DNA of 64,000 bases, taken from IMG/VR virus record IMGVR_UViG_3300033141_002949, positions 1,354 to 65,353 of that record, one strand, 5' to 3'. How positions within the stretch are numbered: position 1 is the first letter of the stretch; each line of letters begins with the position of its first letter. Shown here in pieces: positions 43,435 to 59,269 of this stretch. Source of the stretch: a virus (Duplodnaviria > Caudoviricetes). The notes under the pieces are model-generated. The model searched no databases and was not told the origin of the DNA. It saw nothing but the letters and a program-made list of their open reading frames with translations. Position numbers and translations under genes: made by a program.

Positions 43435-43441
43435 CGGAGAG

Positions 43442-45166: not shown

Positions 45167-45339
45167 CGCTCTACCAAAAGAGCGCAAAGCAGTTTTTAGC
45201 CTTGCGTCTAGGAAACCGCGATCAATGCGAGTCGAAAAATCTCTCCATTGGTTGCGGTTTTCTAGGCGCTCCCGCAAGTCTTTCCCTCTTTTTTCTCTGC
45301 TGTCTCTTGCTGTCCTATGCACTCTTTTCCAGTCTTTTG

Positions 45340-45790
45340 GACTTCCCAAAGAACTTTCCGCTTTCACAGAAAGTTCTGCCGCTTTCACACAATATGCCTC
45401 TCTGCGCTTGCCATATTATCATACACTCAAAAGCAAAAAACAGAAAACTATCTATATCTTTTCTACACTTTTGGCAGATAAACCTGCTTTTCTACACTTT
45501 GTGAAATGACCCCCCTTCTATAAGAACTTTATATATATATATATATATAAGCGGATAATGACTTTCCGCTTCTCTCTTAAAAACTTCTTCTTTTCTGCCC
45601 CTACCCCCCTCCGCGCCAGGGTGTAGAAAAGCGAGTTTATCTGCCAAAAGTGTAGAAAACCTCGCGGTCTTTTCCGGTTGACTCCAGTATATGCCATGAT
45701 AAACTGGCAGCAAAATGCATCTAAATTTTCATTTGCTGCCACTTTCACAAAAAGTTCTTCCAGTTTCACAACTGTTTTTTCCACTTCCCT
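45340..45790. other. AT-rich non-coding region, candidate replication origin
   Basis: 39-bp inverted repeat (45459-45497 / 45621-45659) flanking a (TA)n run; further CTTTCACA.AAAGTTCT direct repeats. Confidence 0.55.
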
Positions 45791-45883
45791 CTGTGCCCGT
45801 TTTCACAGGCCCCTGCCAGTTTATCTCCTGCAAATGCGCACTGCATTTGCAGGATACGCTGCATGACACGAAAGGACGGAAGC

Positions 45884-46258
45884 ATGTGCATGTTATCAGA
45901 AGCCTGGCGCCGTGGGGTGCATGTGCAGATGGGCGTCTGTCCGTTTTGCTTGGCCGCCCCGCCGCACGAGACCCACGAAGTATCTGTCTCTCAGGAGCAC
46001 AATCTCGTCACCATTAGAAACACGTGTCACAATGGACATGTCTGGCAGTCGTTGTATACTTTGATCGACGCGCTGCCCGACGCGGAACCCATCGCCACGG
46101 TGCATGTGAGCACGGCGTACATGCTAGCCGACGATAACAACCTTGAGGAGCCGGGGTCCATCGCCCGCCAGATGCTCCCCTCTGTGCCCGAGGACGCCGT
46201 AGAGTACTTGACACCCATGAGCGACGGTTTTTTGGTAACGTTCTACGAACGAGAATGA
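45884..46258 (+). CDS. hypothetical protein
   Basis: AAGGA RBS; CPFC...CHNGH. Confidence 0.55.
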   Translation: MCMLSEAWRRGVHVQMGVCPFCLAAPPHETHEVSVSQEHNLVTIRNTCHNGHVWQSLYTLIDALPDAEPIATVHVSTAYMLADDNNLEEPGSIARQMLPSVPEDAVEYLTPMSDGFLVTFYERE

Positions 46259-46557
46259 GTATCTTCTTGCGTGTGCTTGTGCTATCTATCTCTCTACGGT
46301 ACGGACTAGACCCTGCGTATAGTGCCTGCATCGTAGAGCACGAATCCTCATGGCGCGCTGACGCGGTGGGGCGCGCTGGTGAAATCGGCTTGACACAGAT
46401 CATGCCCTCCACGGGCGAATGGTTCGCAGAGATGGCCGGCATAGAGTGGTGCGAGGATTCCCTGTACGACCCGGAGTACAACCTGGAGTTGTTCGCTTGG
46501 GCCGTGACAAACGGGTACGCCGAACATTGGTCGACGCATTCATTGTGTAAACCGTAA
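46255..46557 (+). CDS. small lytic transglycosylase (SLT domain)
   Basis: HESSW...GEIGLTQIMPST...LYDPEYN. Confidence 0.8.
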   Translation: MSIFLRVLVLSISLRYGLDPAYSACIVEHESSWRADAVGRAGEIGLTQIMPSTGEWFAEMAGIEWCEDSLYDPEYNLELFAWAVTNGYAEHWSTHSLCKP

Positions 46558-46572
46558 ACAGAGGAGGTCAGC

Positions 46573-46887
46573 ATGGGGACTTTGGATTTCACAACGCGCA
46601 ACGTGCGGTGGTACGGCGAGCCTATAACGGTGCGCCTGCTGCCGTTCGGAACGCGCTACAAAGTCATCGAAACCAACTCTAGTTGGTGCAAGCGCCTAGA
46701 GGCCTACTACGCAGAGCGCCTCGATTTCTGGCGTAACTACCCACATCCTTGTGACGTCCAAGAACAAGCACATCGGGACATTCTCCGGGAGTTCTTCTTC
46801 GTACCCTTACCAAAGTCCCGACGCCTTGCCGGGCCTTGGTGCACCGGGCACATACGTGACGAGGACTCCGTGGTGTGGACAATCTGA
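46573..46887 (+). CDS. hypothetical protein
   Basis: AGGAGGT RBS. Confidence 0.65.
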   Translation: MGTLDFTTRNVRWYGEPITVRLLPFGTRYKVIETNSSWCKRLEAYYAERLDFWRNYPHPCDVQEQAHRDILREFFFVPLPKSRRLAGPWCTGHIRDEDSVVWTI

Positions 46888-46908
46888 GCCAGAGAAAGGA
46901 GGACCACA

Positions 46909-47145
46909 ATGAGGGGCATACGATTCTATCGAGAACCTAACGGGAACTGTATAGCAATCGACACTGAGACCCCGCTTCTGGGAGACGTCGCATGGGGAGC
47001 AGCAGGGCTGTACGACCGCCCCAACTCCCCTGTGGCGTCGACTGGCGTGTCGCGCGCATACTTGCGCGACGAGTGTAAGCGGATATCTGAGAAGCGGGCG
47101 CGCGAGTTGCACCCCAAACTGTTCGAGTATCTGGAGGTGGAATGA
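46909..47145 (+). CDS. hypothetical protein
   Basis: AAGGAGG RBS. Confidence 0.65.
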   Translation: MRGIRFYREPNGNCIAIDTETPLLGDVAWGAAGLYDRPNSPVASTGVSRAYLRDECKRISEKRARELHPKLFEYLEVE

Positions 47146-47147
47146 CA

Positions 47148-47441
47148 ATGGGGGCGAATACATTCTACACACGCTCTAGAGGCGGAACGCCGGAGGAGGC
47201 GTTCCGCCGCGCCGTGGACATGGCTCGCTACAGGTTCGGTCATGACGGCTACACTGGCTCTATAGCCGAGAAGGAAAGTTTCGTCATGGTAGAGGTCCCC
47301 AGAGGGGCGGAGCCAGAGGAACACGCCTACACGCTCCTCATGGCGCGCGGTGTGGACAAGTGGGGACCGGCAGGGTGCATCGTTCTTGAGCCAGAGAAAG
47401 GAGAAAAGGAGTATCTGTTTTTCGGTTGGGCGCCGTCGTGA
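47148..47441 (+). CDS. hypothetical phage protein
   Basis: MGA..F...GHDGYTGSIAEK...KWGPAGCI...YLFFGWA pattern. Confidence 0.7.
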   Translation: MGANTFYTRSRGGTPEEAFRRAVDMARYRFGHDGYTGSIAEKESFVMVEVPRGAEPEEHAYTLLMARGVDKWGPAGCIVLEPEKGEKEYLFFGWAPS

Positions 47442-47465
47442 AACTGAATGGTTAGGGAGGAAAAC

Positions 47466-47669
47466 ATGCATTGGAGCGACGCGGAGCATTGGTGGGTATG
47501 TGATTGCGGGGCCGTGCTGCCCGACGCCCCACGCGGGGACCAAGGGCGCGGCCTTGTGCAGTGCCGACGGTGCGGCCAGTGGTGGCGGTTCGGCTACTGG
47601 CTGCTGAACCGCTGGCCCGGCGATAAGGGCAACACTGGTCTAGAACCCAGGCGGGCCATGATGTACTAG
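47466..47669 (+). CDS. small Zn-ribbon protein, paralogue A
   Basis: WWVCDCGAVLPDAPRGDQ..VQC..CG; GGAGG RBS. Confidence 0.6.
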   Translation: MHWSDAEHWWVCDCGAVLPDAPRGDQGRGLVQCRRCGQWWRFGYWLLNRWPGDKGNTGLEPRRAMMY

Positions 47670-47724
47670 CCGCTAGGGTGGCTCTGGCCTCTACCAGAGC
47701 CACCCCGCAAAGGAGGTTATCACC

Positions 47725-47949
47725 ATGCTACCGCCAGAAGTCCACACGTTCATTGGCCGCTACTACGGCCACCGCGCGCACCCGGTTGCCGTCGCCGTCG
47801 ATGGTGATGGCATCGAGTACATCATCACCAAGCAGAACGGCCATCGGACCATCGGGGCATATGCCCCAAATGGCACCTGGCGGACCCTAGCGCCGTCACA
47901 TGTGCCGGATGGTCTGGCTTGGTCGTTGTACTGGGTGCAACCGGTCTAG
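47725..47949 (+). CDS. hypothetical protein
   Basis: AAGGAGGT RBS; flanked by hairpins at 47676-47706 and 47956-47984. Confidence 0.6.
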   Translation: MLPPEVHTFIGRYYGHRAHPVAVAVDGDGIEYIITKQNGHRTIGAYAPNGTWRTLAPSHVPDGLAWSLYWVQPV

Positions 47950-48000
47950 GCCTTACCCCACGGGGGATATCATCCCCCGTGGGGAAGCAGAAAGGGGGTT

Positions 48001-48273
48001 ATGATGAGACTCACAGTCGATCAGTTGTTTGAGGCTGCTCGCATTCTGGATGCGGCGACCGGGCCGTCCATTCGCGTCGGTTACCAAGAGGTAGCCGGCG
48101 TCCCAGATGATGATAGATTCATCTGGGCGCGGGGCAACTGGGACCGTGCACGCGGGCAGTCGCTTGTCTTAGCGGTCTGGGTGCCGCAGGACGAGCAGGG
48201 GGGCGATGGTACTTGCCTCCTGTGGGATGATGGCGAAATCCTTGTCATCGACGAGGATGAAGACTCTGCATAA
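48001..48273 (+). CDS. hypothetical protein
   Basis: G-rich RBS; co-oriented with neighbours. Confidence 0.55.
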   Translation: MMRLTVDQLFEAARILDAATGPSIRVGYQEVAGVPDDDRFIWARGNWDRARGQSLVLAVWVPQDEQGGDGTCLLWDDGEILVIDEDEDSA

Positions 48274-48283
48274 GGAGGTCAGC

Positions 48284-48670
48284 GTGGAAATCTATGTCGA
48301 TGATTGGCCCTACCTCAACAGCTGGATTGTTCAGGAATACCACGATGTCATGCTGGTACTTCCTGCAACGCTTCCGCCGCAGCCGCCGGGCGAGCGTCCG
48401 CTATGGGCTGAGTTAGCTTCTCGCGCCGAGCGACGAATGGAACTACTCGGCTATAGAAACACGGCGGGCAAAGGAAACTGGGATGAAGGGGTTGCCATGT
48501 TTGAGCGAACCCATGCGCCAGCGACGTACAAAGACCTGTTATCTGAACTTGCCACAGGAGAAGAGGTGCGACATATACGAGCGCTAATCGACGCTCGGGG
48601 CGCAGAGTTGTCCGATCCGATTGCCCCGGACTTCTTCGACGTGCTCTCCGAAGAGGGCTACCCGGTCTAA
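48284..48670 (+). CDS. hypothetical protein
   Basis: TAAGGAGGT RBS and GTG start. Confidence 0.6.
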   Translation: MEIYVDDWPYLNSWIVQEYHDVMLVLPATLPPQPPGERPLWAELASRAERRMELLGYRNTAGKGNWDEGVAMFERTHAPATYKDLLSELATGEEVRHIRALIDARGAELSDPIAPDFFDVLSEEGYPV

Positions 48671-48727
48671 TCTGTCGAGGCGTTACGCCCTTGCAAGTCT
48701 GGACGGATTAACACAGAGAGGAGCAAC

Positions 48728-48934
48728 ATGACGTATCAGTATTGGGCGCACAAGCGTAGCGGAGAGGTCTACGCCGTGCGCTTGGAGCATGGCCGGGTCA
48801 CGGGCGTATGTGGGCCATTGCATCGCTCTGAGGCCGTCACAACAAACCTGCTCAACATGCACTATGACGACCACCCAGAGGATGTGGCGTGGCTACGCAA
48901 GGCCGACAACGACTTTGTACTGTACGAACCGTAA
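48728..48934 (+). CDS. hypothetical protein
   Basis: AGGAG RBS. Confidence 0.6.
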   Translation: MTYQYWAHKRSGEVYAVRLEHGRVTGVCGPLHRSEAVTTNLLNMHYDDHPEDVAWLRKADNDFVLYEP

Positions 48935-48944
48935 GGGGGGTAGC

Positions 48945-49136
48945 GTGGACAAATGGTGGGTATGTGATTGTGGGGCCGTGCTGCCCGACGCCCCGCGCGG
49001 GGACCAAAGCCGGGGTCTGGTGCAGTGCACCAAGTGTGGGGCCTGGTGGCGGTTCGACTACTGGCCTTCACGCGGGTGCCCTCGCTGGCCGGTTATGGAT
49101 GGTCCGGAGCCCAGGCTGGTTATTACAGGTGACTAG
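48945..49136 (+). CDS. small Zn-ribbon protein, paralogue B
   Basis: Near-identical N-terminal half to 47466-47669. Confidence 0.6.
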   Translation: MDKWWVCDCGAVLPDAPRGDQSRGLVQCTKCGAWWRFDYWPSRGCPRWPVMDGPEPRLVITGD

Positions 49137-49148
49137 AAAGGGGATGTG

Positions 49149-49412
49149 ATGGAACTCTACATTGTGTTTCGTAACCGTGGGGATTCTCTTTACTACGTGG
49201 CCCGCGTTAGCGACCGTGCGCGGTGCGTAGGCGGGCCTTTCGTGTACTTTGACGACGCACACACTGCCGCTGCGAGGTTGGCCAGCCCCGCAGCTGTCTA
49301 CGGTACTTGGCCGGCAGAGTTCGGACAGCGTGCGGCGGACTATGCCAGCGATCTGAATGTGGACGATCTGCCGCGCGATGCTTATATCGTTCGTCGCCAG
49401 AGAGGAGGCTAA
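49149..49412 (+). CDS. hypothetical protein
   Basis: Co-oriented and tightly packed. Confidence 0.5.
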   Translation: MELYIVFRNRGDSLYYVARVSDRARCVGGPFVYFDDAHTAAARLASPAAVYGTWPAEFGQRAADYASDLNVDDLPRDAYIVRRQRGG

Positions 49413-49413
49413 C

Positions 49414-49764
49414 ATGACAGGCGAGATGCACTGGGTAAACCAGGATGGAACAGACTCCAACGGTGATGTGTGGAAGATACACGCAGCGGTTGCCAAGGCC
49501 GTCGGTGGAAGGCTAATGCCTTTCGACGTGTACCAAGGCCCCTACATCGTGGTCGGCCCGGACCTGCGTGTGGGCAGAACACCCGTGAATGCGCGGCACT
49601 TGGGCATCGTGCGCCTTTGGCTGTACGTCAAAGACGACCTTGTAGGGGTCGTCTACCGCGAGGACACAGACACGTACCGAGAATACCTGCCTATAGACGA
49701 CGCGGATGAGGCCTGCAACGCTGCATATGATTTGCTTCAAGAGGAGGTGTCACTGACATGCTAG
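49414..49764 (+). CDS. hypothetical protein
   Basis: AGGAGG RBS. Confidence 0.6.
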   Translation: MTGEMHWVNQDGTDSNGDVWKIHAAVAKAVGGRLMPFDVYQGPYIVVGPDLRVGRTPVNARHLGIVRLWLYVKDDLVGVVYREDTDTYREYLPIDDADEACNAAYDLLQEEVSLTC

Positions 49765-50405
49765 TGACAATGGAGAACTCAGAGGTACGACTGTCCTTGT
49801 CTCCGGACTGTTTGGACGACGGACCGAGAAGGGAGTGGGATAACCTGGGCCACATGGTCTGCTGGCATAACCGCTACACGTTAGGAGATGAGGGGTTACC
49901 AGCGTCGCCGGAGGATTGGTTCTACGACATGGCCTGCGCTCTCCCCGGCGATTGCCGCAAGGCCGAGCGCCTGTGTGAGCAGGGCCGGCTTCAAGAGTAC
50001 GTTCTAGGGCACCCAGACTTGCTGTATCTGGACTTGTTCCTGTTCGACCACAGCGGACTTGCTATGTCCACGTCGTCTCGAACATTTCGAGCCTGTGACC
50101 CCCTTGGTTGGGATTGGGGACAGGTGGGTTACATCTACGTGACCAAGGACGAGCTACGCGCGGAGTTCGGCGTACAGCGGTTGAGCAAAGCGCGATTGAA
50201 GCAGGCTGAAGAGATACTGAGGCAGGAGGTCGCCGTTTATAATATGTGGCTGCAAGGCGACGTATGGGCGTACACCATCGAGTCGCGGAGCACAGGGGAG
50301 ATACTGGACTCCTGCGGCGGCTGCTATGGAATCGATGCTCTCCGATTCCAAGTGCCTGAAGAATATCACGATCTATTGGAGGAGGTGTTAGAGTGCGCAA
50401 TCTAG
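49758..50405 (+). CDS. conserved hypothetical protein of mobile elements
   Basis: PRREWDNLG.MVCWH.RY.LGD, DHSG, WDWGQVGYIY, DSCGG motifs. Confidence 0.75.
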   Translation: MLVTMENSEVRLSLSPDCLDDGPRREWDNLGHMVCWHNRYTLGDEGLPASPEDWFYDMACALPGDCRKAERLCEQGRLQEYVLGHPDLLYLDLFLFDHSGLAMSTSSRTFRACDPLGWDWGQVGYIYVTKDELRAEFGVQRLSKARLKQAEEILRQEVAVYNMWLQGDVWAYTIESRSTGEILDSCGGCYGIDALRFQVPEEYHDLLEEVLECAI

Positions 50406-50662
50406 GTGCTTTTTTGGCAGCGTCCGTCCCTCTTCGAATCACGGACTTGCAAGAGCGGGGCGGGCCTGGACCGGAGGAGTGGGCCTGGGCTGTCGACTTC
50501 GGAGAGGCGTTGACCTACCAGAGAGATGTATTGCTCTTTGGGGACGCGCGACGCGCGTCCGGATTGGCAAACGACCTCTCCCGTGCCGTGGCGATACTGG
50601 CCTTCGCTCCGGGCGGTGTGTCTGTCTTTGGACAGCACTTTGAGGCCAAGAAGGAGGGTTGA
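50393..50662 (+). CDS. hypothetical protein
   Basis: GGAGGAGG RBS; LAFAPGGVSVFG.HF. Confidence 0.6.
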   Translation: MRNLGAFLAASVPLRITDLQERGGPGPEEWAWAVDFGEALTYQRDVLLFGDARRASGLANDLSRAVAILAFAPGGVSVFGQHFEAKKEG

Positions 50663-50875
50663 CGTGATTACTCTGACGGTCACAGAGCAAGAGTATCGAA
50701 CAATCCTGGCCGCGCTGCATATGTGGCAGGATGCCCGCCGTGGGGCGATGAGCCACAGCCTGAACGACGCGCAGCACATCAGTAGGCTATGGAGCATAGC
50801 CACGGCGCACGGGCAGATCATGGGCCTAACCCCTACCGAGGGGAACGCCCTTATAGCCTCACTGGAGGCGCAAAA

Positions 50876-51739
50876 ATGTTCTATGAGACGCGAGTAGATC
50901 GCGGAGACGATGGTATGTTGCGCTTGAGGACCCCTTACAATCCGGCATTGGTTGCCGCACTGAAGGCCGCCGTGCCCACCTCCGAGCGCAAGTGGAACCG
51001 CTTTGACAAGGTGTGGGAGGTGCACCCCCGGCACGCACGAACGCTTGAACAGTTGGTCCGTCGGCATTTGGGGGAGGAGCTACAGATTCCCAAAGAGTAC
51101 ACCGTCGAGCGCCAACCGAGTAAGATGTCCATAGACTTGCACTACCTGGGGGCCTGTCGGGACCGTGGCGGCGGCGAGTCGGCGGCTTATGGTTGGGATG
51201 GTCGTGATTGGCGCTACGTCATATCGGAGAGCGTGCTGCGCTCTTGGTTCGGCGCTCCCGCATCGCCCGACGATGCCGTAAGTCTGTATGCGGTACTTGG
51301 TGTCCGGCAGGGGGTGGGCGCCGACGTTCTCCGAAAGGCGTACCGGCGCATCGCCTTTCAGTGGCACCCTGACAGGTGCAAGGAGCCGGACGCCAAAGAG
51401 CAGTTCCAAGCCGTGCAGCACGCCTATGAGGTGTTGAGCGACCCCGTGCAGCGTGCCAAGTACGACGCTGGACTCGCCCTGGCCGCGACTGTGACAGACA
51501 GCGGGCGTCCCGTGGCGCGCACGCGCGGGTACCGCGCGCCCTTGCGCACAGGGAGATTGGAGGTGATGGCCTTGGAGATGGGCGACAAGGTGATCGTGCA
51601 TGACATCCTAGATTGGCAGGACATACAAGACGCACAGGGGCGGACGCTCTACGCAGAGTGGGATACGCGAATGCAGGAAGTTGTCGAGCTGTGGGTGCCT
51701 GCTCCCCCTGTGCCCGGCACGACCGGGCCGAGTATGTGA
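50876..51739 (+). CDS. DnaJ (J-domain) protein with HARP-like N-terminal region
   Basis: LYAVLGV..RKAYRR...WHPDR...AYEVLSDP..RAKYD. Confidence 0.85.
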   Translation: MFYETRVDRGDDGMLRLRTPYNPALVAALKAAVPTSERKWNRFDKVWEVHPRHARTLEQLVRRHLGEELQIPKEYTVERQPSKMSIDLHYLGACRDRGGGESAAYGWDGRDWRYVISESVLRSWFGAPASPDDAVSLYAVLGVRQGVGADVLRKAYRRIAFQWHPDRCKEPDAKEQFQAVQHAYEVLSDPVQRAKYDAGLALAATVTDSGRPVARTRGYRAPLRTGRLEVMALEMGDKVIVHDILDWQDIQDAQGRTLYAEWDTRMQEVVELWVPAPPVPGTTGPSM

Positions 51740-51760
51740 AACTAGCAAAGGAGTGGCTAA

Positions 51761-52321
51761 ATGGAACTCGCAATCGTTCCGGGCAGCATCGCTGATGTAG
51801 CCAAGGCCGAGGGCCGCAGCGTCGCTGAGAGCTTTATATCCTGTGACGCTGTGATCGTGTTCGACTCGTCGGGGTCGATGGCTACACGCGATGCGCGTAA
51901 CGGTCGGGCGCGGTACGACGTGGCCTGCGAGGAATTGCGCGCGTTGCAGGAGCGCCTGCCGGGGAAGCTGGCGGTAGTCGCCTTCTCGGATTCGGTGATT
52001 TTCGTGCCCGGCGGGGAGCCGCCCCTGTTGGGCGGCGGGACGGACTTGACTCAAGCGTTGCGTTTCGTCAAAGTCGCCGACGTAGCGGGCATTCGGATTA
52101 TCGTAGTCTCCGATGGCGAGCCGAACGACCCCGTGAGCGCCCTGCATGTAGCGGAGGAGTTCTCGGGCCGTATAGACACGGTGTACGTTGGCCCAGAGGA
52201 GATGCCATGGGGTCGGGATTTCCTTCAGCAACTCTCCCGTGCGCATAGAGGGGCGATGTACGTCGCCGACCGTGCGAACGAGCTCGCAGACAAGGTGCAG
52301 TTACTGTTGGAAGGAGCGTAG
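51761..52321 (+). CDS. von Willebrand factor A domain protein
   Basis: DSSGSM MIDAS, GGT, VSDGEP. Confidence 0.88.
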   Translation: MELAIVPGSIADVAKAEGRSVAESFISCDAVIVFDSSGSMATRDARNGRARYDVACEELRALQERLPGKLAVVAFSDSVIFVPGGEPPLLGGGTDLTQALRFVKVADVAGIRIIVVSDGEPNDPVSALHVAEEFSGRIDTVYVGPEEMPWGRDFLQQLSRAHRGAMYVADRANELADKVQLLLEGA

Positions 52322-52322
52322 C

Positions 52323-52760
52323 ATGGCAGTTCACTATCTAGAGCACATGGACATCTTCCGTATGATTCATCCCCGTGTCATCCCTGTGAACTGCGTTGGC
52401 TCCTGCGGCACAGGCATTGCCAGGCAGTTCGCATTGCAAGAGCCACGGTTGGCGTTGGCCTTTGCAGGCTACGTCAAGGAGCATGGCTTTCACCCTGGGG
52501 ATTGCCTGTATCTGCCCTGGGATGTCGGCTACGTCTTCATGGCTACCAAGAACGCGCCGTGGAACCCGAGTACGATGTCCTGGGTGCGTCAAGGGTTGGA
52601 GACCCTGCGGGAGCGTGCCCCTGTGTGGAGGTTGTCCAACGTGGCCCTGCCCAGAGTGGGGTGCGGGTGCGGTGGGTTGGATTGGAAGAATGTCAAGCCG
52701 GTGGTAGAGGAGGTGTTGGGTCCGTCGGATGTGACGGTGTGGGTATGCTTGTACCCGTAG
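52323..52760 (+). CDS. macrodomain protein (DarG/TARG1-like ADP-ribose hydrolase fold)
   Basis: PVNCVGSCGTGIARQF, ATK, ALPRVGCGCGGLDW. Confidence 0.85.
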   Translation: MAVHYLEHMDIFRMIHPRVIPVNCVGSCGTGIARQFALQEPRLALAFAGYVKEHGFHPGDCLYLPWDVGYVFMATKNAPWNPSTMSWVRQGLETLRERAPVWRLSNVALPRVGCGCGGLDWKNVKPVVEEVLGPSDVTVWVCLYP

Positions 52761-52764
52761 GGTG

Positions 52765-52835
52765 TCGGGGGGTGTGCGGAGGCTGATACACACCCCCCAC
52801 CTCGCCACACGCACAGTGAGCAGGAGGTCTCACAT
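52765..52835 (-). ncRNA. putative small RNA with two CCUCC-loop hairpins
   Basis: GUGAG-ACCUCCUG-CUCAC and GGGGGGUGUG-UAUCAGCCUCCG-CACACCCCCC directly downstream of a strong minus-strand promoter. Confidence 0.55.
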
Positions 52836-52839
52836 CCCC

Positions 52840-52868
52840 AGTATACGTGGAATCAGCCGTGGTGTCAA
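52840..52868 (-). promoter_or_regulatory. near-consensus sigma70 promoter, antisense to the surrounding genes
   Basis: TTGACA-17 bp-TATACT on the minus strand. Confidence 0.8.
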
Positions 52869-52886
52869 GAGGAGAGGAGGTCTTCA

Positions 52887-53402
52887 ATGAACGAAGGTGT
52901 AGTCATAGTCGTTCACGACGGGCGCGTCGAGCGCGTACACATGGACAGCCAAAGTCCCGTAGTCGTCGTAGACCTCGACGACGCGGCTTTCGGGGACAAC
53001 TACGTGTACGAGCCACAGGTTCAGTCGTTGGAAAGTCTTTGCACGAAATACCGCTTGGCCGTCAACAGGTACTTTTTCCTGTCTGGGGACGACGTGAAGA
53101 TTTCCGATGAGGTACGCGCTCTCATGAATGTGTACTCTCACGTGACGACAAAACCTGTCGAATACGATCTGGACGACTGGTACACGATTGTAGACTGGCT
53201 CGTTTGGTCCAAGCTGAAAGAGATGGTGGGAGAGGATGAAGAAACGCAACTGGATACGTTGGCGTTTATTGCCAAGGCGTTGCAGGATATGCGCTGGCTT
53301 GCGGAGCATGGCGCGCGGCTGAAAGAGAAGAGGCGGGAGAAGCTATGGTCACGACCTGACGACTGTGGAGAAAGGAGGAAGGTGCATTCCCCTGTCGCCT
53401 AA
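52887..53402 (+). CDS. hypothetical protein
   Basis: AGGAGGT RBS; stop codon lies in the IS-end hairpin. Confidence 0.65.
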   Translation: MNEGVVIVVHDGRVERVHMDSQSPVVVVDLDDAAFGDNYVYEPQVQSLESLCTKYRLAVNRYFFLSGDDVKISDEVRALMNVYSHVTTKPVEYDLDDWYTIVDWLVWSKLKEMVGEDEETQLDTLAFIAKALQDMRWLAEHGARLKEKRREKLWSRPDDCGERRKVHSPVA

Positions 53403-53430
53403 AGACGGCGGTTTCCTGCACCGATTTTCT
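53372..53430 (-). mobile_element. orphan left end of the same IS200/IS605-type element
   Basis: 57/63 identity (counting the flanking ATGA) with 29240-29178; again abuts ATGA. Confidence 0.75.
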
Positions 53431-53952
53431 ATGAAAGTTGATGCCGCGATATGGTCCGCTGAGAGGGCACTGGAGGCGCGCGGCTATCGTATAATGCCTA
53501 TTGACCCTGTGGACCCCTCACTGTGGGCCTACACACGTTATGACCGACGGCACGTCTACGTGCGTCCCGACCTGTCGGAGCGCGAGACCCTTCTGGCCTT
53601 ACTACACGAGATGGGGCACGTAGAGTTGCACGCGGGCACAGACAGAAGCAAGATTGCGACGTACCTTCGAGATGTGGAGGCGGAACTGACGGCGATGCGT
53701 ATGCTGCGCCTGTTACGTCAAACGTCCAACGGCATCTCGATGGACTATCTCAAAAACGAAACCGCCGGCCATGGAGACGTTCTCTCCATCGTGCTGACGT
53801 TGGACGCCGACCGTTTGGAGCGAGCTGCCGCGCGTCTGGTAGGTGGGATGTGGGCCTGCTATCTGCCCAGGATGCTTTGGGAGCAGTTGACAAGAAGCCG
53901 AAAGTATGCTACACTTTCTTTAGTGGACAGTGGTCAGGAGGAGGAGGCATAA
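53431..53952 (+). CDS. ImmA/IrrE-like zinc metallopeptidase
   Basis: LLHEMGHVELH...VEAE. Confidence 0.75.
   Translation: MKVDAAIWSAERALEARGYRIMPIDPVDPSLWAYTRYDRRHVYVRPDLSERETLLALLHEMGHVELHAGTDRSKIATYLRDVEAELTAMRMLRLLRQTSNGISMDYLKNETAGHGDVLSIVLTLDADRLERAAARLVGGMWACYLPRMLWEQLTRSRKYATLSLVDSGQEEEA
53887..53915 (+). promoter_or_regulatory. sigma70-type promoter
   Basis: TTGACA-17 bp-TACACT with extended TG. Confidence 0.7.
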
Positions 53953-54749
53953 TGGGCCGCGTCTACATCGTAGGCCGCGTGCTCGACGCTTTCGACGAGC
54001 AGGCGGCGAAGTTAGTACCCCGACCCCGCGAACTGTTATCCCATGTGCTCGTGTCCAGACATCACGTCCTGGACGAGACCAACCGTGCTATCGCCGCGCG
54101 GTACGATAACACCCCGCTTGAACTCTTGCGCTCCGCGCGTGTAGAGCGCGCCGCGCAGTACGTGGTGCGCGATCTCTGTTGGGCGCTCAATCTACGCAGT
54201 CACAGCGTTGCTACGTTCATCGTAGAGGACACCATTCCCATTCTCCACGTTATGCCGGACGAGTTAGGCGATGTTGTGGATTTTGGCGGCAAGATACCCA
54301 GCCGTCCGCAGGTGGGTCTGGACGCACACCTGTACCGCGCTATACAGCGGCGCATAGAGGTGTGCAGGCTCCCTGACCAATCCCGTGACGAAAACATCTC
54401 CGTTCAGGAGTACGTTACGGCCCTCGTGCAGAGCATTCCCCCAGAGAACTTACTGAGTTATCTAAACTCCGATGACTTTATGGAGTGGCGCAAGGCACGC
54501 GCCGGCGTGAAGTACCGTGCCGTTCCCGTGTCGCGCACGATCTACATCGCGTTGAGGCACATAAAGACGGAGTTGAACATACCCATGTCGCAGATGCTCT
54601 CCTACTTGGTGGAAAAGGATCTGAAGGCCACCGAGGTCGCAGTGAGTATGAGTGAGGGCGGGATACCTGAGGATGTTCGCAAGTATTGGATACGAGAGGT
54701 GAAAACGCTTCTGAACATTGACGAGGAGCGCGGCGTGCGATGGGAATGA
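53952..54749 (+). CDS. hypothetical protein, possible DNA-binding regulator
   Basis: Strong GGAGGAGG RBS; ribbon-helix-helix-like C-terminal segment. Confidence 0.65.
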   Translation: MGRVYIVGRVLDAFDEQAAKLVPRPRELLSHVLVSRHHVLDETNRAIAARYDNTPLELLRSARVERAAQYVVRDLCWALNLRSHSVATFIVEDTIPILHVMPDELGDVVDFGGKIPSRPQVGLDAHLYRAIQRRIEVCRLPDQSRDENISVQEYVTALVQSIPPENLLSYLNSDDFMEWRKARAGVKYRAVPVSRTIYIALRHIKTELNIPMSQMLSYLVEKDLKATEVAVSMSEGGIPEDVRKYWIREVKTLLNIDEERGVRWE

Positions 54750-54970
54750 CGGACATCTGTCTTGGACCGGTAATAGTCGCCACTGTTGGATTGGCCGTCT
54801 CGCTGGTTCGGGCTTTGGATACGCCAGAGCACAACGCTGGGGATTTGGAACCCGCCGGGGGTGACGATCCGGATTTCTACGTCTACTCTGAGGAGGGGGT
54901 TAGGAAGGTCGCCTACAAAGGAAGTCCGATGTACGGTGCGATCCAAGCCTCTCTACGTCGTAGGAGGTAA
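54746..54970 (+). CDS. small membrane protein
   Basis: ATGA overlap; N-terminal TM. Confidence 0.5.
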   Translation: MTDICLGPVIVATVGLAVSLVRALDTPEHNAGDLEPAGGDDPDFYVYSEEGVRKVAYKGSPMYGAIQASLRRRR

Positions 54971-54972
54971 AC

Positions 54973-55260
54973 GTGCGCCTAGATACATCGTTCGTGCGCC
55001 GCATGTTCGCCCTGGGCAACCATAAGAGGTTGCGCATCCTGGCGCTCCTCGCGGAACGCCCCAGGACGCACAGGGAGATATTGATGAATCTGCGCAGCAT
55101 CACCGACGCGGGGTACCACCTGCGGCTCCTACAGCGTTTGAGCATCATAAACAAGGACGCATCAGACCCTCACGATGTCGTGTACTCGCTGCGGCCTGAG
55201 GCTATTGAGCACGTGATCCTTGCATTGGAAGAGTTCTTAGAGGAGGTCAAACATGAATAG
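54973..55260 (+). CDS. ArsR-like winged HTH regulator
   Basis: ALGNHKRLRILALL...YHLRLL...YSL. Confidence 0.75.
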   Translation: MRLDTSFVRRMFALGNHKRLRILALLAERPRTHREILMNLRSITDAGYHLRLLQRLSIINKDASDPHDVVYSLRPEAIEHVILALEEFLEEVKHE

Positions 55261-55465
55261 GACGGCATTGCAGGAGATGATTTGGGAGCAGTACAGCGCA
55301 CAGACCAGCACAGTAGAGGAATACCTTCGGCTTGGCAACTCTGCGGAGTGCTACGTGCAGGACCTAACAACGTTCTGCGCCGAAGGCCTCGACGAGGAGG
55401 AGCGCGCGTTCGTCGAGGCACGAGTGCGTGAACTCGTCGAGGGTGATCTGCGTCAGATCGACTAG
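55253..55465 (+). CDS. hypothetical protein
   Basis: AGGAGGT RBS. Confidence 0.6.
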   Translation: MNRTALQEMIWEQYSAQTSTVEEYLRLGNSAECYVQDLTTFCAEGLDEEERAFVEARVRELVEGDLRQID

Positions 55466-55548
55466 CCCAGTACGGCAGGGGGCGAGGCTCGTGGACTACC
55501 ATGAGCCTCGCAAGCCTGGGTGGGTTAGCAGAGACGAGGAGGCTAAAT

Positions 55549-56556
55549 ATGAGTAAACCTGTCATACACATCACCGACGTGCAGACCTTCGTGCAGTGTC
55601 GCTACCGATGGTACTACTCGTCGCCGCTCCAGAACAACCTGGAGCCTGTACGACCCAACAAGCACTTGCTGTTGGGCACAGCCGTCCACGCGGCGTTGGC
55701 CGCGTACTACGACCCGTCGGTGCCACGCTCGGCTGACGTGCTCATCAGCGCATACGAAGAGCACACAGCCGAGGCATTGGTCGCGTTGGAAAGGGAGATC
55801 ATCGAGGTTCCCGAGGACGTGATCGAGGCCTACAGCTTGGGTCGCGTCATGCTGGACCACTACGCAGTGTGGGCGCCCCATCACGATGATTTCGAGGTCC
55901 TGTTGACCGAGTACACGCTGGAGCACGACTGGGGGGATTTCACGTTCCAAGGGACTGCCGACGCCGTGGTTCGTAGGGGCGACGACCTGTGGATTGTGGA
56001 GCACAAGACGTACACCCACGTGCCGTCGGGGACCGCGCTGGGCTTCTCTATGCAACCGCCAGCGTACATTCACGCCGCTCGAAGGGACCCCGAGATAGTC
56101 AAGCACGGCAACGTCGTGGGTGTCCTGTACAACATCCTGCGAAAGTATCCCCCTGCCAGTCCGGGGGTCCTCAAGTCCGGCAAGCTGTCCCGGCGTGCCA
56201 ATATCGCTTGCAGCCCCTACTGGTTCGCGCACTGCGTGCGCGAGGCCGGCCAGGACGTATCGGAGTACGCGGACTTCATTGACACGTTGGACCCCTTCAA
56301 GTTAAACTACCGAGCATACATCACCGTGAGCGACCAGCGGATGCGCGTGTTCGAGGATTATCTGCGTGTCCTGGCGGACGAGATGCTGAACGAGCACAAC
56401 GTTAGGCTGTACCCCGCGAATCCCATATACAACTGTGACAACTGCGGGTACCAATCCCTCTGTGCCCAAGCCCTGTACGGTGAGCCGTGGGAGCCGCTGG
56501 TGGGCTTGGAGTACAGAGATCGATCCACCGGTGGCGAGGACGATAAACATGATTGA
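55549..56556 (+). CDS. PD-(D/E)XK (RecB/Cas4-like) exonuclease
   Basis: QCRYRW, GTAVH, GTADAV, IVEHKT, CDNCGYQSLC. Confidence 0.88.
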   Translation: MSKPVIHITDVQTFVQCRYRWYYSSPLQNNLEPVRPNKHLLLGTAVHAALAAYYDPSVPRSADVLISAYEEHTAEALVALEREIIEVPEDVIEAYSLGRVMLDHYAVWAPHHDDFEVLLTEYTLEHDWGDFTFQGTADAVVRRGDDLWIVEHKTYTHVPSGTALGFSMQPPAYIHAARRDPEIVKHGNVVGVLYNILRKYPPASPGVLKSGKLSRRANIACSPYWFAHCVREAGQDVSEYADFIDTLDPFKLNYRAYITVSDQRMRVFEDYLRVLADEMLNEHNVRLYPANPIYNCDNCGYQSLCAQALYGEPWEPLVGLEYRDRSTGGEDDKHD

Positions 56557-57940
56557 TGGTATAACGCTTCACTGTGGCGATGTCATTGATGTCGCCAAAG
56601 ACTTTCCAGATGAATCCTTCACTGCGGTTTTCACGGACCCGCCGTATGGGTTATCTGGCACGCCAGATATGGTTGACGTGTTGAGCCATTGGCTGAACGG
56701 TGACGACTACGTGGCGCGTGGCGGCGGATTCATGGGCAAGTCGTGGGACTCGTTCGTGCCCGGGCCTAGCGTGTGGAAGGAAGTGTTCCGTCTGCTGGTC
56801 CCAGGTGGGGTGCTGCTTGTCTTTGCTGGCACGCGAACTGCCGATCTTTTAGGGGTGGCTATTAGATTAGCAGGCTTTGAAAAGTTCGACGAGATTGACT
56901 ACTTGCACGGCGGGCTGCCCCCACAGATAGAGTGGTTGTATGGCTCGGGGTTCCCCAAGTCACACGATGTTAGTAAGGCCATTGACCGTGAGGCAGGGGC
57001 AGAGCGAAAGGTGGTGGGACGAGTCAAGGGTCGCGGAAGCAATAGCGGAGAGGGGCGTTACAACTGGAACAATCCTGACGATAAGGCTGATAGGACATGG
57101 TATGACGCCACGGTTCCCGCTACGCCCGCCGCCCACATCTGGGCTGGCTACGGCACAGCGCTTAAACCCGCACATGAAATCATCCTGTGCTTCCGCAAGC
57201 CGCGTGAGGCTACCTACGCACAGACGGCGGTGGAACATGGCGCGGGGGCGCTGAACATAGATGGGTGTAGGATTGAGACGAACGAGAGCACGGTTAGAAC
57301 TGTTGGTAGAACAGCAGCAGACGGGTGGGGCCTGAACAAGCAGGCTGGGCTGACACGAGGAAGCGATCGAGGTCGCTGGCCTGCTAACGTCATCCTGGAT
57401 GAGGAGGCGGGTGCTCTGCTGGACGCGCAGAGCGGGTACAGCAAAACGAAACGTATTGAGAAGCCTTCTAACTGTGGCGGCACGTTTCAGACGAATCGGG
57501 GACCACGCGGACACACCGACTCTGGCGGCGCTTCCCGCTTCTTCTACTGCGCTAAGGCCAACAAGCGCGAGCGAGACGCAGGGCTGGAGGGCATGGATCA
57601 AAAGAGGCGCGATCTCTCTCGCCATTCTGAACAACCCAGCATGAATAGTGGAGAGGGCAACCCGTACAATCGCGGCGTAATCCCCGTATTCAATTATCAT
57701 CCGACGATTAAGCCGTTAGCCCTCTGTGAGTATCTGGCGCGCCTCATCGTGCCACCGCTAGAGTACCGTGACACGGCGCGGCTCCTGGTGCCGTTTGCTG
57801 GCTCAGGGAGCGAGATGATAGGTGCGATGCAGGCGGGCTGGCGGAACGTCGCAGGCATAGAGATAAGCGAGGAGTATATCGAGATTGCCAAACAACGCAT
57901 AGCGTACTGGTGCAAACAAGGTGTACAAGACAAGGAATAG
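56549..57940 (+). CDS. DNA methyltransferase (N4-C/N6-A, beta class)
   Basis: TDPPY, WLYGSGFPKS, HPTIKP, PFAGSGS. Confidence 0.92.
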   Translation: MIDGITLHCGDVIDVAKDFPDESFTAVFTDPPYGLSGTPDMVDVLSHWLNGDDYVARGGGFMGKSWDSFVPGPSVWKEVFRLLVPGGVLLVFAGTRTADLLGVAIRLAGFEKFDEIDYLHGGLPPQIEWLYGSGFPKSHDVSKAIDREAGAERKVVGRVKGRGSNSGEGRYNWNNPDDKADRTWYDATVPATPAAHIWAGYGTALKPAHEIILCFRKPREATYAQTAVEHGAGALNIDGCRIETNESTVRTVGRTAADGWGLNKQAGLTRGSDRGRWPANVILDEEAGALLDAQSGYSKTKRIEKPSNCGGTFQTNRGPRGHTDSGGASRFFYCAKANKRERDAGLEGMDQKRRDLSRHSEQPSMNSGEGNPYNRGVIPVFNYHPTIKPLALCEYLARLIVPPLEYRDTARLLVPFAGSGSEMIGAMQAGWRNVAGIEISEEYIEIAKQRIAYWCKQGVQDKE

Positions 57941-57949
57941 GAGGATGAC

Positions 57950-58771
57950 ATGCCATTGATGCGTATGGAAGAGTTGGAGGGCAACTGCTTGCGGTTGCTG
58001 GTTTACGGGCCGCCTGGTGTGGGTAAGACCTACCTGTGCGGCACCGCTCTGGACGTGCCGGATATGCTCCCCATCCTGTGGGTCGAGTGTGATGGAGGTC
58101 TGGTCACGGTGCGGGATAAACTCCGCGAGCACTGGGAAGAGGGCATCAAAGTCTTGAAGCTGGAGAGCCAGTCCGACGTGAACACGCTGTACAGCGCCGT
58201 GGGCAGCGCCAAGACGAAAATGCGAACTCTAGTGATCGACTCGATCACCGAGCTGTACGCGCTGTTGCTGGAGATCAGATTGACTACACAAGGGCGAGCG
58301 GGTGGCCTTCCGCAGTTGCAGGACTACGGCGCGGTCTCCGGTCAGGTCATCGAACTGCTGCGCACGATGGCTCGCCGTGACGATGTGAACTTTATCTGTA
58401 CGGCGGGCGAGCAGATGCAGAGCGACGATCTGACCGGCGCAATGTACATCGTGCCGGACATCACCGGCAAGATGGCGGTGCGCGCACCCAGATTCTTCCA
58501 CATCGTAGGTTACATGACGGCGGACATACGTGCCAACTCTAAAGGCGAGATCCGCCGCGCGGTGCGCACTTTGCAAATACAACCCTACGGGCGCGTGTAC
58601 GCAAAGGACCGCACGCCGAACGCAGCGCTGGGCGCTGCGCTGGCTAATCCTGACATCCAGACCCTTTATGATGCGATCAATGGACGTTTGCCTGGCGGTG
58701 TACCGAGGGGCAGCGCCAGCGACGACGGTATAGCCGATTCCGAAGCCGAGGAGGGTAACGACAATGGGTGA
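57950..58771 (+). CDS. AAA ATPase (Sak4/AAA_24-like recombination protein)
   Basis: YGPPGVGKT, LVIDSITE, AKDRT. Confidence 0.85.
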   Translation: MPLMRMEELEGNCLRLLVYGPPGVGKTYLCGTALDVPDMLPILWVECDGGLVTVRDKLREHWEEGIKVLKLESQSDVNTLYSAVGSAKTKMRTLVIDSITELYALLLEIRLTTQGRAGGLPQLQDYGAVSGQVIELLRTMARRDDVNFICTAGEQMQSDDLTGAMYIVPDITGKMAVRAPRFFHIVGYMTADIRANSKGEIRRAVRTLQIQPYGRVYAKDRTPNAALGAALANPDIQTLYDAINGRLPGGVPRGSASDDGIADSEAEEGNDNG

Positions 58772-59232: not shown

Positions 59233-59269
59233 GAGGGAGCGGGACGACCCTCGGAATCCCGCTCCCTTC
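59233..59269 (+). terminator. hairpin after the SSB gene
   Basis: AGGGAGCGGGA/TCCCGCTCCCT stem. Confidence 0.45.

What the first reader, a model, noticed from the sequence alone, without database searches (positions are those of the whole stretch)
52741..52868. Strong antisense promoter in front of a putative sRNA with two anti-Shine-Dalgarno loops
Seen: within about 23 kb of plus-strand genes, a TTGACA-17-TATACT promoter faces the other way. The predicted start (about 52833-52835) coincides with the base of hairpin GUGAG-ACCUCCUG-CUCAC. A second 10-bp hairpin also shows CCUCC in its loop. The only AUG is followed at once by UGA. ACCUCCU is the 16S rRNA 3' tail sequence, and most early genes here have AGGAGG(U) RBSs. 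Inference: a phage sRNA that could silence strong-SD mRNAs (its own early genes or host genes), or act antisense to the macrodomain/vWA/DnaJ genes. On the plus-strand transcript the same hairpins expose GGA loops, resembling CsrA sites, which is an alternative reading.
Basis: partly seen in the sequence, partly recalled or inferred. Interest (0 to 1): 0.72.

Follow-up and report, generated by a model that had tools for sequence, protein, structure and literature searches.

The report
Orphan backward promoter and hairpin RNA candidate
A 126-base gap between two early genes of an uncultured virulent phage holds a near-perfect bacterial promoter pointing backwards, followed by hairpins that display the mirror image of a ribosome-binding site; this is a plausible small regulatory RNA gene, but it has no usable relatives, no terminator and no expression data.

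Summary
The sequence features are real. TTGACA-17-TATACT (52868-52840, minus strand) is the best sigma-70-type match in the window. It belongs to a set of four TTGACA-N16-18-TAnnnT sites, against 0.47 expected by chance. Two of the other three sit exactly where a promoter is needed. The site lies in a 126-bp spacer that is non-coding on both strands. A strong 10-bp GC hairpin and a weak 5-bp hairpin both carry CCUCC in their loops.

Several points weaken the small-RNA reading:
- There is no U-tract terminator on either strand.
- The 5' hairpin forms only if the RNA is about 93 nt or longer.
- No specific trans target stands out.
- There is no Rfam match.
- The strong hairpin resembles three other sense-strand hairpins between genes.
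- No comparative or expression test was possible. The only relative is a 99% twin whose DNA I could not fetch, and no sequencing run was listed.

Best reading (about 0.35): a real backward promoter makes an untranslated RNA that pairs with the phage's own early mRNA at this gene junction and at the next gene's ribosome site. The scan has noted similar anti-ribosome-site phage RNAs on other DNA before. This example is an unconserved singleton, so interest is moderate to low.

The parts
52761..52886 (.). 126-bp non-coding spacer between the macrodomain gene (52323-52760, +) and a 171-aa ORFan gene (52887-53402, +)
   Evidence: ORF lists. Both flanking genes are on record as called, 145 aa and 171 aa. 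The 42-codon plus-strand frame and the antisense frames score as non-coding and are not on record.
52863..52868 (-). -35 hexamer TTGACA
52840..52845 (-). -10 hexamer TATACT, 17 bp from the -35, followed by a GGGG discriminator
52833..52835 (-). Predicted transcription start. G52833 is the 7th base after the -10. That is the same distance as the A of the ATG from the -10 at the late promoter.
   Evidence: Inference. No transcript data.
52816..52833 (-). Weak 5' hairpin GUGAG/CUCAC with loop ACCUCCUG
   Evidence: It forms only in RNAs of 93 nt or more and is absent from the 75-nt MFE.
52767..52798 (-). Strong 10-bp GC hairpin with CCUCC in a 10-12-nt loop. It folds equally well on the plus strand, 6 nt after the macrodomain gene's stop codon.
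52741..52815 (-). Extended, interrupted stem around hairpin 2, using G-U pairs. It exists only on the minus-strand RNA and reaches 20 nt into the macrodomain gene.
52628..52783 (-). Very C-rich, G-poor stretch of the would-be transcript (C/G 2.5-5.0). It resembles a Rho entry site.
   Evidence: Over the antisense strand of 45900-52700 the background median is 1.25 and the 95th percentile 1.94. A role for Rho is inference.
52870..52883 (+). Ribosome-binding site of the 171-aa gene. AGGAGGUCU at 52875-52883 repeats the plus-strand copy of hairpin 1 (52822-52830), so it is complementary to the hairpin-1 loop and 5' arm.

Best explanation
The spacer holds a working host-sigma-70-type promoter that fires leftwards, against the phage's rightward early operon. 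It would start an untranslated, C-rich, structured RNA at about 52833.

The RNA has no intrinsic terminator. It is probably ended by Rho in the C-rich tract inside the antisense of the macrodomain gene, and perhaps trimmed back towards the long stem around hairpin 2. That would give an RNA of roughly 90-200 nt, in which both CCUCC loops are open.

It would act by base pairing on the phage's own rightward mRNA:
- It is the perfect complement of the macrodomain/171-aa gene junction. The two sense/antisense hairpin loops (GGAGG against CCUCC) could serve as first contact points.
- Its 5' loop also matches 9-10 nt of the ribosome site of the next gene, 45 nt further along the same mRNA.

The expected effect is cleavage or destabilisation of the early mRNA at this junction, and lower expression of the 171-aa / M78-peptidase pair. 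Collisions between converging polymerases would add to the effect.

Shown: the promoter match and its class enrichment, the non-coding nature of the spacer, the folds and the complementarity. Inferred: that the promoter fires, where the RNA ends, and every functional effect.
For: - The site is the best promoter match of the window.
- TTGACA-N16-18-TAnnnT occurs 4 times against 0.47 expected, with 0 of 100 shuffles reaching 4. All four sites read TAnnCT, against 0.17 expected.
- The member at 40624-40596 ends 6 nt before the ATG at 40589 of the first late gene. The source also calls that gene from this ATG. The promoter is kept in a second strain, locus L023.
- The member at 53887-53915 is followed by AGGAGGAGGAGG and the ATG at 53952 of a gene on record as called.
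- The spacer is non-coding. The 42-codon plus frame scores -0.28 per codon; only 0.5% of 206 in-frame 40-codon windows of real genes score -0.27 or lower. The antisense frames score -0.06 to -0.19, against 0.09-0.33 for real genes. None of these frames is on record.
- The minus-strand RNA folds better than shuffles (z -2.69) and better than the plus strand of the same interval (z -1.45).
- Both CCUCC motifs are unpaired with probability of about 0.96-0.99 in RNAs of 93 nt or more.
- Across the window, 10 hairpins on the minus-strand RNA and 6 on the plus-strand RNA carry CCUCC in the loop. The only two within 70 nt of each other are these.
- There is 9-nt exact complementarity to the adjacent gene's ribosome site.
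- The C/G ratio reaches 5.0 just downstream of hairpin 2.
Against: - An 11/12 promoter match alone arises in 17 of 100 simulated windows.
- No U-tract terminator follows, although the phage has a canonical terminator elsewhere (43442-43471 plus T6).
- Hairpin 1 is marginal and is absent from short RNAs.
- Hairpin 2 looks like three other sense-strand hairpins that lie between genes, just after stop codons, and also lack U-tracts: 47676-47705, 47956-47984 and 59234-59267. It may therefore serve the plus-strand mRNA.
- Hairpin energies are nearly the same on both strands.
- Predicted duplexes with 73 initiation regions are no better than for shuffled RNAs; 25 of 100 shuffles were as good.
- There is no Rfam match at E <= 1.
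- The element is a singleton, so no conservation or covariation test was possible.
Confidence: 0.35

Rival explanations
1. The promoter match is fortuitous or silent, and the structures serve the plus-strand mRNA. Hairpin 2 would be one of this phage's hairpins placed between genes just after a stop codon, acting as a 3'-end protector, a processing site or a partial terminator at the boundary between early and replication genes. The extra GGAGG motifs would be sense-strand ribosome-site-like sequences, acting as standby or decoy sites or having no function.
For: - Three other perfect hairpins of 11-13 bp lie between plus-strand genes, directly after stops, without U-tracts.
- Hairpin 2 starts 6 nt after the TAG of the macrodomain gene.
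- It folds on the plus strand at -21.5 kcal/mol, z -2.40.
- GGAGG is ten times commoner than CCTCC on the plus strand of 40700-64000: 81 against 8.
- A chance 11/12 promoter match is not rare, arising in 17 of 100 simulations.
- There is no minus-strand terminator.
Against: - A chance match falling in a spacer is improbable. 0.47 chance sites are expected in 128 kb of strand, and spacers are a small part of that; this scaling is my inference.
- The plus-strand 136-nt spacer RNA folds no better than shuffles (z 0.02).
- No start codon lies at working distance from either extra GGAGG.
- No plus-strand promoter lies nearby to give a 5'-proximal stabiliser.
Confidence: 0.28
2. The promoter is real, but the RNA product does not matter. 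Converging transcription would act as an insulator, damping read-through from the early host-takeover genes (J-domain, vWA, macrodomain) into the next module. The mechanism would be transcriptional interference.
For: - The same promoter evidence as for the best explanation.
- The site sits at the boundary between the early genes and the peptidase, recombination and replication genes.
- There is no terminator and no specific trans target.
Against: It does not explain why two loops display CCUCC, nor the minus-strand-specific extended stem.
Confidence: 0.15
3. One reading: a trans-acting small RNA that copies the 16S rRNA tail and masks strong Shine-Dalgarno sites of many phage or host mRNAs.
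For: - ACCUCCU lies in loop 1 and CCUCC in loop 2, both open in RNAs of 93 nt or more.
- 14 of 39 provisional plus-strand starts have GGAGG upstream.
- There are 8-9-nt matches at the ribosome sites of genes starting at 52887, 46573, 55253 and 15880.
- C-rich loops that bind G-rich ribosome sites without a chaperone are documented for the 6C sRNA (PMC6486639, passages read).
Against: - Duplex energies are no better than for shuffles.
- Complementarity is generic, limited to the SD plus 1-3 bases.
- There is no terminator, no conservation and no Rfam hit, including none to 6C or C4.
Confidence: 0.12
4. The spacer encodes a small protein. One candidate is the 42-codon plus-strand frame that fills the gap exactly: GTG at 52762, 1 nt after the stop of the macrodomain gene, ending in an ATGA overlap with the next gene. 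The other is a leaderless 46-codon minus-strand frame starting with GUG at 52833.
For: - The plus frame is open from 52762 to 52890 and is joined to both neighbours.
- The phage appears to use a leaderless start for its first late gene.
- 52833 is a GUG at the same distance from the -10 as that start.
Against: - Codon scores are -0.28 for the plus frame. They are -0.19 for the 64-codon minus frame, which contains the 46-codon one. Real genes score 0.09-0.33.
- None of these products is on record as a called gene.
- The plus frame has no ribosome site in front of it.
Confidence: 0.06
5. The plus-strand hairpins expose GGA and act as CsrA-type binding sites.
For: AGGA and CGGA lie in the plus-strand loops.
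Against: - The phage record has no CsrA, while the control genomes ring.
- The host is unknown. The only lead, Chloroflexota, rests on atlas scores below 0.9.
- In the plus-strand fold, loop 2 is partly closed by a small inner helix.
Confidence: 0.03

Closest known systems
OOP RNA of phage lambda (cis-antisense RNA from promoter pO; review PMC12197685, passages read)
   Same: A host-type promoter inside a rightward operon fires backwards. It makes a short untranslated RNA complementary to the end region of the upstream gene's mRNA. In lambda the outcome is RNase III-dependent decay of that mRNA.
   Different: As I recall, OOP has its own intrinsic terminator and is conserved among lambdoid phages. 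Here there is no terminator and no relative. The start lies 73 nt beyond the upstream stop codon. The phage shows no integrase, resolvase or HTH_3 repressor, so it is probably virulent.
c4 antisense RNA of phages P1/P7 (Rfam C4; PMC12197685, passages read) and sar RNA of P22 (same review)
   Same: These are phage RNAs whose exposed loop sequences pair with the ribosome-binding region of a nearby phage gene and block its translation.
   Different: There was no Rfam match of any family at E <= 1 in 50000-56000. As I recall, c4 is cut out of the same-sense transcript upstream of its target. Here the RNA would be made from its own backward promoter. Complementarity to the ribosome site is only 9-10 nt and is generic SD sequence.
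6C sRNA of Actinobacteria (Rfam 6C; PMC6486639, abstract and passages read)
   Same: A hairpin RNA whose C-rich loops pair directly with G-rich ribosome sites, without a chaperone.
   Different: 6C is a chromosomal, widely conserved family defined by conserved cytosines in its loops. The candidate gives no match to it, is phage-borne, is unconserved, and its loops carry CCUCC rather than C runs.
   Same: Loops complementary to Shine-Dalgarno sequences.
   Different: Those are host-encoded and conserved, and they have terminators. None of these properties was shown here.

Membership tests
Sigma-70-type (housekeeping sigma) promoter | -35 and -10 hexamers close to TTGACA / TATAAT, spaced 16-18 bp | tested here: met
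   11 of 12 with a 17-bp spacer, the best match in the window. Class enrichment is 4 against 0.47 expected.
Sigma-70-type (housekeeping sigma) promoter | Lies in non-coding DNA, and other members of the same class sit in front of genes | tested here: met
   The spacer is non-coding. Sites 40624(-) and 53887(+) are correctly placed in front of genes.
Sigma-70-type (housekeeping sigma) promoter | A transcript 5' end 5-9 nt downstream of the -10 | not testable with these tools
   No sequencing run was listed.
Stand-alone bacterial/phage small RNA gene | Intrinsic terminator (GC hairpin plus U-tract) defining the 3' end | tested here: not met
   No minus-strand terminator in 48000-58000. The nearest is at 45206-45183. 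Hairpin 2 is followed by GACACCCUAC.
Stand-alone bacterial/phage small RNA gene | Conserved sequence or structure in relatives, with covariation in the stems | not testable with these tools
   The only relative is a 99% twin contig whose DNA could not be fetched. No other homologous locus was found.
Rfam families 6C and C4 (and all others) | Covariance-model match | tested here: not met
   0 matches at E <= 1 over 50000-56000, both strands.
Anti-Shine-Dalgarno (C-rich loop) regulatory RNA, by mechanism | CCUCC-type motif unpaired in hairpin loops | tested here: inconclusive
   Loop 2 is open in all lengths tested. Loop 1 is open only in RNAs of 93 nt or more, and is unpaired with probability 0.18-0.19 in RNAs of 69-75 nt.
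Anti-Shine-Dalgarno (C-rich loop) regulatory RNA, by mechanism | Target initiation regions bind better than chance | tested here: not met
   The best duplex is -47.9 kcal/mol. Shuffled RNAs give a mean best of -46.3 +/- 3.2, and 25 of 100 shuffles are as good.
Cis-antisense RNA (OOP-like) | Backward promoter inside an operon, with a transcript complementary to the sense mRNA | tested here: met
   Geometry. Complementarity to the sense mRNA follows automatically if both strands are transcribed.
Cis-antisense RNA (OOP-like) | Overlap with the coding end of the upstream gene | tested here: inconclusive
   The 3' end is unknown. The favoured fold reaches 52741, which is 20 nt inside the gene.
Intrinsic terminator of the plus-strand operon | GC hairpin followed by a U-tract | tested here: not met
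   Hairpin 2 is followed by ACCUCGCCAC on the plus strand.
Small protein-coding gene | Codon usage like the phage's genes | tested here: not met
   Scores are -0.28 for the 42-codon plus frame and -0.06 to -0.19 for the antisense frames, against 0.09-0.33 for real genes.
CsrA binding site | GGA in hairpin loops of the mRNA, and a CsrA protein in the system | tested here: inconclusive
   GGA lies in both plus-strand loops. The phage record has no CsrA. The host is unknown.

The most novel reading that the evidence does not exclude
A virulent phage, possibly of Chloroflexota, makes an RNA from a consensus host promoter that begins at a start-stop (AUG-UGA, or a 5' GUG). The RNA displays a copy of the 16S rRNA tail, ACCUCCU, in its 5' loop and a second CCUCC in a stable hairpin. 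It would mask Shine-Dalgarno sites of early messages in trans. This would be an RNA-only shut-off of early translation, favouring messages such as the leaderless first late gene that need no Shine-Dalgarno pairing.
Probability: 0.1. Interest if true: 0.7.

Novelty: new member of a known kind. Interest (0 to 1): 0.35.

Why it matters
If the promoter fires, this would be an antisense or anti-ribosome-site RNA in a virulent, uncultured phage from a poorly studied host group. It would add to the small set of phage regulatory RNAs, which are known mostly from temperate coliphages (review PMC12197685).

The location is also informative. It marks the boundary between a J-domain/vWA/macrodomain host-takeover block and the peptidase, recombination and replication genes, so it could show how such phages time these modules.

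As it stands, the element is an unconserved singleton without expression data. Its value is as a candidate for a simple promoter and Northern test, not as a finding in itself.

Tried and rejected
RELATIVES
- blastn of 52300-53400 against the phage collection found no match. tblastn of the 171-aa protein and of the terminase against the same collection also found none.
- The 171-aa protein found no relative in viral contigs or in metagenome contigs. Among 5.8 billion proteins it found only its own cluster.
- Cluster look-up showed a 99%-identical twin on a 16,267-bp contig.
- A 30-nt pattern covering hairpin 1 and the -10 found nothing in viral contigs.
- The hairpin-2 stem pattern found one unrelated phage, L032. 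It shares no protein with the window and has no similarity beyond the stem. I treat it as chance or convergence.
- Terminase relatives of about 50% identity lack both flanking genes, 0 of 5 records each.
- The 21 loci holding macrodomain homologues (38% identity or less) show no similar arrangement. Two of the 21 have a minus-strand promoter-like site of 9/12 or better within 260 nt, and both are AT-rich.
- The terminase found nothing in genome contigs.

EXPRESSION
- The look-up of sequencing runs: none was listed and no RNA holder was listed.

OTHER CHECKS
- Target prediction by duplex energy gave no signal above shuffles.
- A single-sequence AlphaFold model of the 171-aa neighbour was poor (mean pLDDT 50.5), so I did not send it to a fold search.
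- Repeat search: the spacer is not repeated elsewhere in the window.
- Coding readings were rejected on codon scores.
- Supplementary files of the two papers were not consulted.
Full report
CONTEXT. The window is bases 1354-65353 of a 65,353-bp IMG/VR virus record with direct terminal repeats. GC content is about 59%. Late genes run leftwards from about 40.6 kb: terminase at 38708-40087 and lysin at 8995-10755. Early and replication genes run rightwards from about 40.9 kb. No integrase, resolvase or HTH_3 repressor was found in the record, so the phage is probably virulent. The only host lead is Chloroflexota, from protein-atlas neighbours of the lysin with scores below 0.9.

The finding lies in a 126-bp gap (52761-52886). 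Upstream are a J-domain protein (50789-51739, DnaJ 2.7e-21), a weak vWA protein (51761-52321) and a macrodomain protein (52323-52760; phrog_335 1.1e-21, Pfam Macro 0.0031, below its cut-off). Downstream are a 171-aa ORFan (52887-53402) and a weak M78-type peptidase (53365-53952). Gaps of more than 100 bp are rare in this gene block; the others are at about 43435-43550 and 45167-45862.

THE PROMOTER. TTGACA-17-TATACT at 52868-52840 on the minus strand is present as described. It is the only 11/12 match among seven sites of 10/12 or better on both strands of the window. Alone that is not decisive, because at least one 11/12 match arose in 17 of 100 Markov simulations.

The class, however, is clearly enriched. 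TTGACA-N16-18-TAnnnT occurs four times against 0.47 +/- 0.69 expected, and none of 100 shuffles reaches four. All four sites read TAnnCT, against 0.17 expected. TTGACA itself is not enriched (20 against 25.7), so it is the pairing with a -10 that is non-random.

Two of the other three members are placed exactly where a promoter is needed. The site at 40624-40596 (minus) ends 6 nt before the ATG at 40589 of the first late gene. That leaves no room for a ribosome site, so the message is probably leaderless. The source's gene call starts at that ATG, and the promoter is kept in a second strain (L023). The site at 53887-53915 (plus) is followed by AGGAGGAGGAGG and the ATG at 53952 of a 265-aa gene that is on record as called.

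A chance member of this class falling in the small non-coding fraction of the window is unlikely. From the 0.47 expected over both strands, I estimate a few per cent at most. I therefore put the probability that the site is a working promoter at roughly two in three.

CODING POTENTIAL. A 42-codon plus-strand frame fills the gap exactly. It starts with GTG at 52762, one base after the upstream stop, and ends in an ATGA overlap with the next gene. Its codon score is -0.28 per codon. Only 0.5% of 206 in-frame 40-codon windows of real genes score -0.27 or lower, while 11% of out-of-frame windows score at least that high.

Antisense frames of 158, 73 and 64 codons score -0.08, -0.06 and -0.19, against 0.09-0.33 for real genes. 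The 64-codon frame contains a possible leaderless GUG at 52833. None of these products is on record as a called gene. The spacer is best treated as non-coding on both strands.

THE HAIRPINS. Hairpin 2 (52798-52767) is a perfect 10-bp GC stem: -23.3 kcal/mol, z -3.07 on the minus strand, and -21.5 kcal/mol, z -2.40 on the plus strand. Hairpin 1 (52833-52816) has 5 bp: -5.8 kcal/mol, z -2.0.

The 95-nt minus-strand RNA folds at -44.6 kcal/mol, z -2.69. The same interval on the plus strand gives z -1.45, and the 136-nt plus-strand spacer gives z 0.02.

In RNAs of 69-75 nt, ending just after hairpin 2, hairpin 1 has probability 0.01-0.02. Its CCUCC is then mostly paired to an internal GAGGU, with unpaired probability 0.18-0.19. 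In RNAs of 93 nt or more, hairpin 1 has probability of at least 0.98 and both motifs are open. The longer fold uses a G-U-containing extension of the stem around hairpin 2 that reaches 20 nt into the macrodomain gene.

No U-tract follows either hairpin on either strand. The phage does have at least one canonical terminator, at 43442-43471 followed by T6. No minus-strand terminator-like site lies between the start and 45206.

The would-be RNA just beyond hairpin 2 is extremely C-rich and G-poor, with C/G up to 5.0. The background median is 1.25 and the 95th percentile 1.94. This composition resembles a Rho entry site. That is inference, and the composition may simply follow from the G-rich codons on the other strand.

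THE CCUCC LOOPS. In the whole window, 10 distinct hairpins on the minus-strand RNA carry CCUCC in the loop, out of 158 motifs. On the plus-strand RNA the count is 6 of 99. These hairpins have a perfect stem of 5 bp or more and a loop of 6-12 nt. The only two within 70 nt of each other are these. From those densities I estimate about 0.15 such pairs by chance in the window. The chance that a pair sits directly behind the best promoter is far smaller.

The confounder is that GGAGG is common on the sense strand, 81 against 8 CCTCC in 40700-64000. In addition, three other sense-strand hairpins lie just after stop codons without U-tracts (47676-47705, 47956-47984, 59234-59267). Hairpin 2 could therefore belong to that class and serve the plus-strand mRNA.

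TARGETS. The longest exact complementarity to a ribosome site is 9 nt (AGGAGGUCU), and a G-U pair would extend it by one. It is with the very next gene, 52887. Matches of 8 nt occur at the ribosome sites of genes starting at 46573, 55253 and 15880. Duplex energies against 73 initiation regions are no better than for shuffled RNAs: best -47.9 kcal/mol against a mean best of -46.3 +/- 3.2, with 25 of 100 shuffles as good. There is thus no evidence for a specific trans target beyond generic anti-Shine-Dalgarno pairing. GGAGG precedes 14 of 39 provisional starts, so 'most' is too strong.

COMPARATIVE AND EXPRESSION EVIDENCE. None could be obtained.
- The 171-aa gene is an ORFan whose only relative is a 99%-identical twin on a 16,267-bp contig. 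That contig's DNA could not be reached.
- The phage collection, viral contigs and terminase relatives hold no homologous locus.
- The 21 loci with distant macrodomain homologues show no such element.
- Rfam gives no match at E <= 1.
- No sequencing run was listed.
- One unrelated phage contig has the same 10-bp stem with another loop, also between two genes. With 20 specified bases in a collection of that size, I regard this as chance or convergence.

INTERPRETATION. The most economical account is a real backward promoter that makes an untranslated RNA. If that RNA exists, it is automatically the perfect complement of the early mRNA at the macrodomain/171-aa junction. The sense and antisense hairpins would offer two GGAGG/CCUCC loop-loop contacts. 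Its 5' loop also matches the ribosome site of the next gene on the same mRNA.

This works like lambda OOP or P22 sar, which are antisense RNAs made from a backward promoter (PMC12197685). It has a flavour of c4 and 6C, where loops pair with ribosome sites (PMC12197685; PMC6486639). It is not a member of any of those families, since there is no Rfam match, no terminator and no conservation. I give this reading 0.35.

The rivals are:
- a silent chance match over sense-strand mRNA hairpins (0.28);
- transcriptional interference without a role for the RNA (0.15);
- a global anti-Shine-Dalgarno RNA (0.12);
- a small protein (0.06);
- CsrA sites (0.03).

The scan has logged the same kind of candidate on other phage DNA; 151 notes hold the search words. 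Several of those are conserved in relatives. This one is weaker because it is a singleton.

VERDICT. The element is a new, unverified member of a known kind (phage antisense or regulatory RNA). Interest is 0.35.

Noticed in passing
window 40589-40624 (minus strand): TTGACA-17-TATTCT, with TG before the -10, ends 6 nt before the ATG of the first late gene (176 aa, on record as called from that ATG). This leaves no room for a ribosome site, so the late-operon message is probably leaderless. The promoter is kept in a second strain (L023).
   Followed up: partly
window 40631-40708: Three tandem 26-bp repeats (100/96/81% identity) lie directly upstream of the late promoter's -35, in the divergent control region. 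They are a candidate binding array for an activator or repressor.
   Followed up: no
window 53887-53954: An internal promoter, TTGACA-17-TACACT with TG, lies inside the 3' end of the M78-peptidase gene. It is followed by AGGAGGAGGAGG and the ATG at 53952 (TAATG overlap). The 299-aa ORF listed from GTG 53850 is therefore better read as a 265-aa gene.
   Followed up: partly
window 47676-47705, 47956-47984, 59234-59267: Perfect hairpins of 11-13 bp lie between plus-strand genes, a few bases after stop codons, and are not followed by U-tracts. Hairpin 2 of the finding may belong to this class of intercistronic hairpins.
   Followed up: partly
window 52762-52890 (plus strand): A 42-codon, very arginine-rich frame fills the spacer exactly, from one base after the upstream stop to an ATGA overlap with the next start. 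Its codon score (-0.28) argues against it being a gene.
   Followed up: yes
window 45167-45862: A low-GC region without a convincing gene. It holds a 39-nt inverted repeat (45459-45497 / 45621-45659, 95%), a TATA palindrome and several promoter-like sites with TAnnCT -10 hexamers. It is probably a second control region of the rightward arm.
   Followed up: no
window 29173-29243 and 53369-53439: A 71-nt inverted repeat, 89% complementary, links the late glycosylation cassette and the start of the M78-peptidase gene. It matches the earlier notes about a miniature-element end.
   Followed up: no
window 40870-41062, 41462-41594, 40118-40243: Alternating CG-rich palindromes lie around the first rightward gene. 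There is also an 18-nt tandem repeat (six overlapping 43-nt copies at 18-nt spacing) inside the 331-aa gene, and a 9-nt tandem repeat inside the first late gene.
   Followed up: no
L032 5453-5484: An unrelated viral contig has the identical 10-bp stem (G6TGTG / CACAC6) with a different 12-nt loop, also between two same-strand genes. It shares no protein similarity with the window.
   Followed up: yes
window 8998-10755 (minus strand): The nearest named atlas clusters of the amidase-type lysin are mostly from Chloroflexota (scores 0.77-0.89). This is a weak lead to the host phylum.
   Followed up: no
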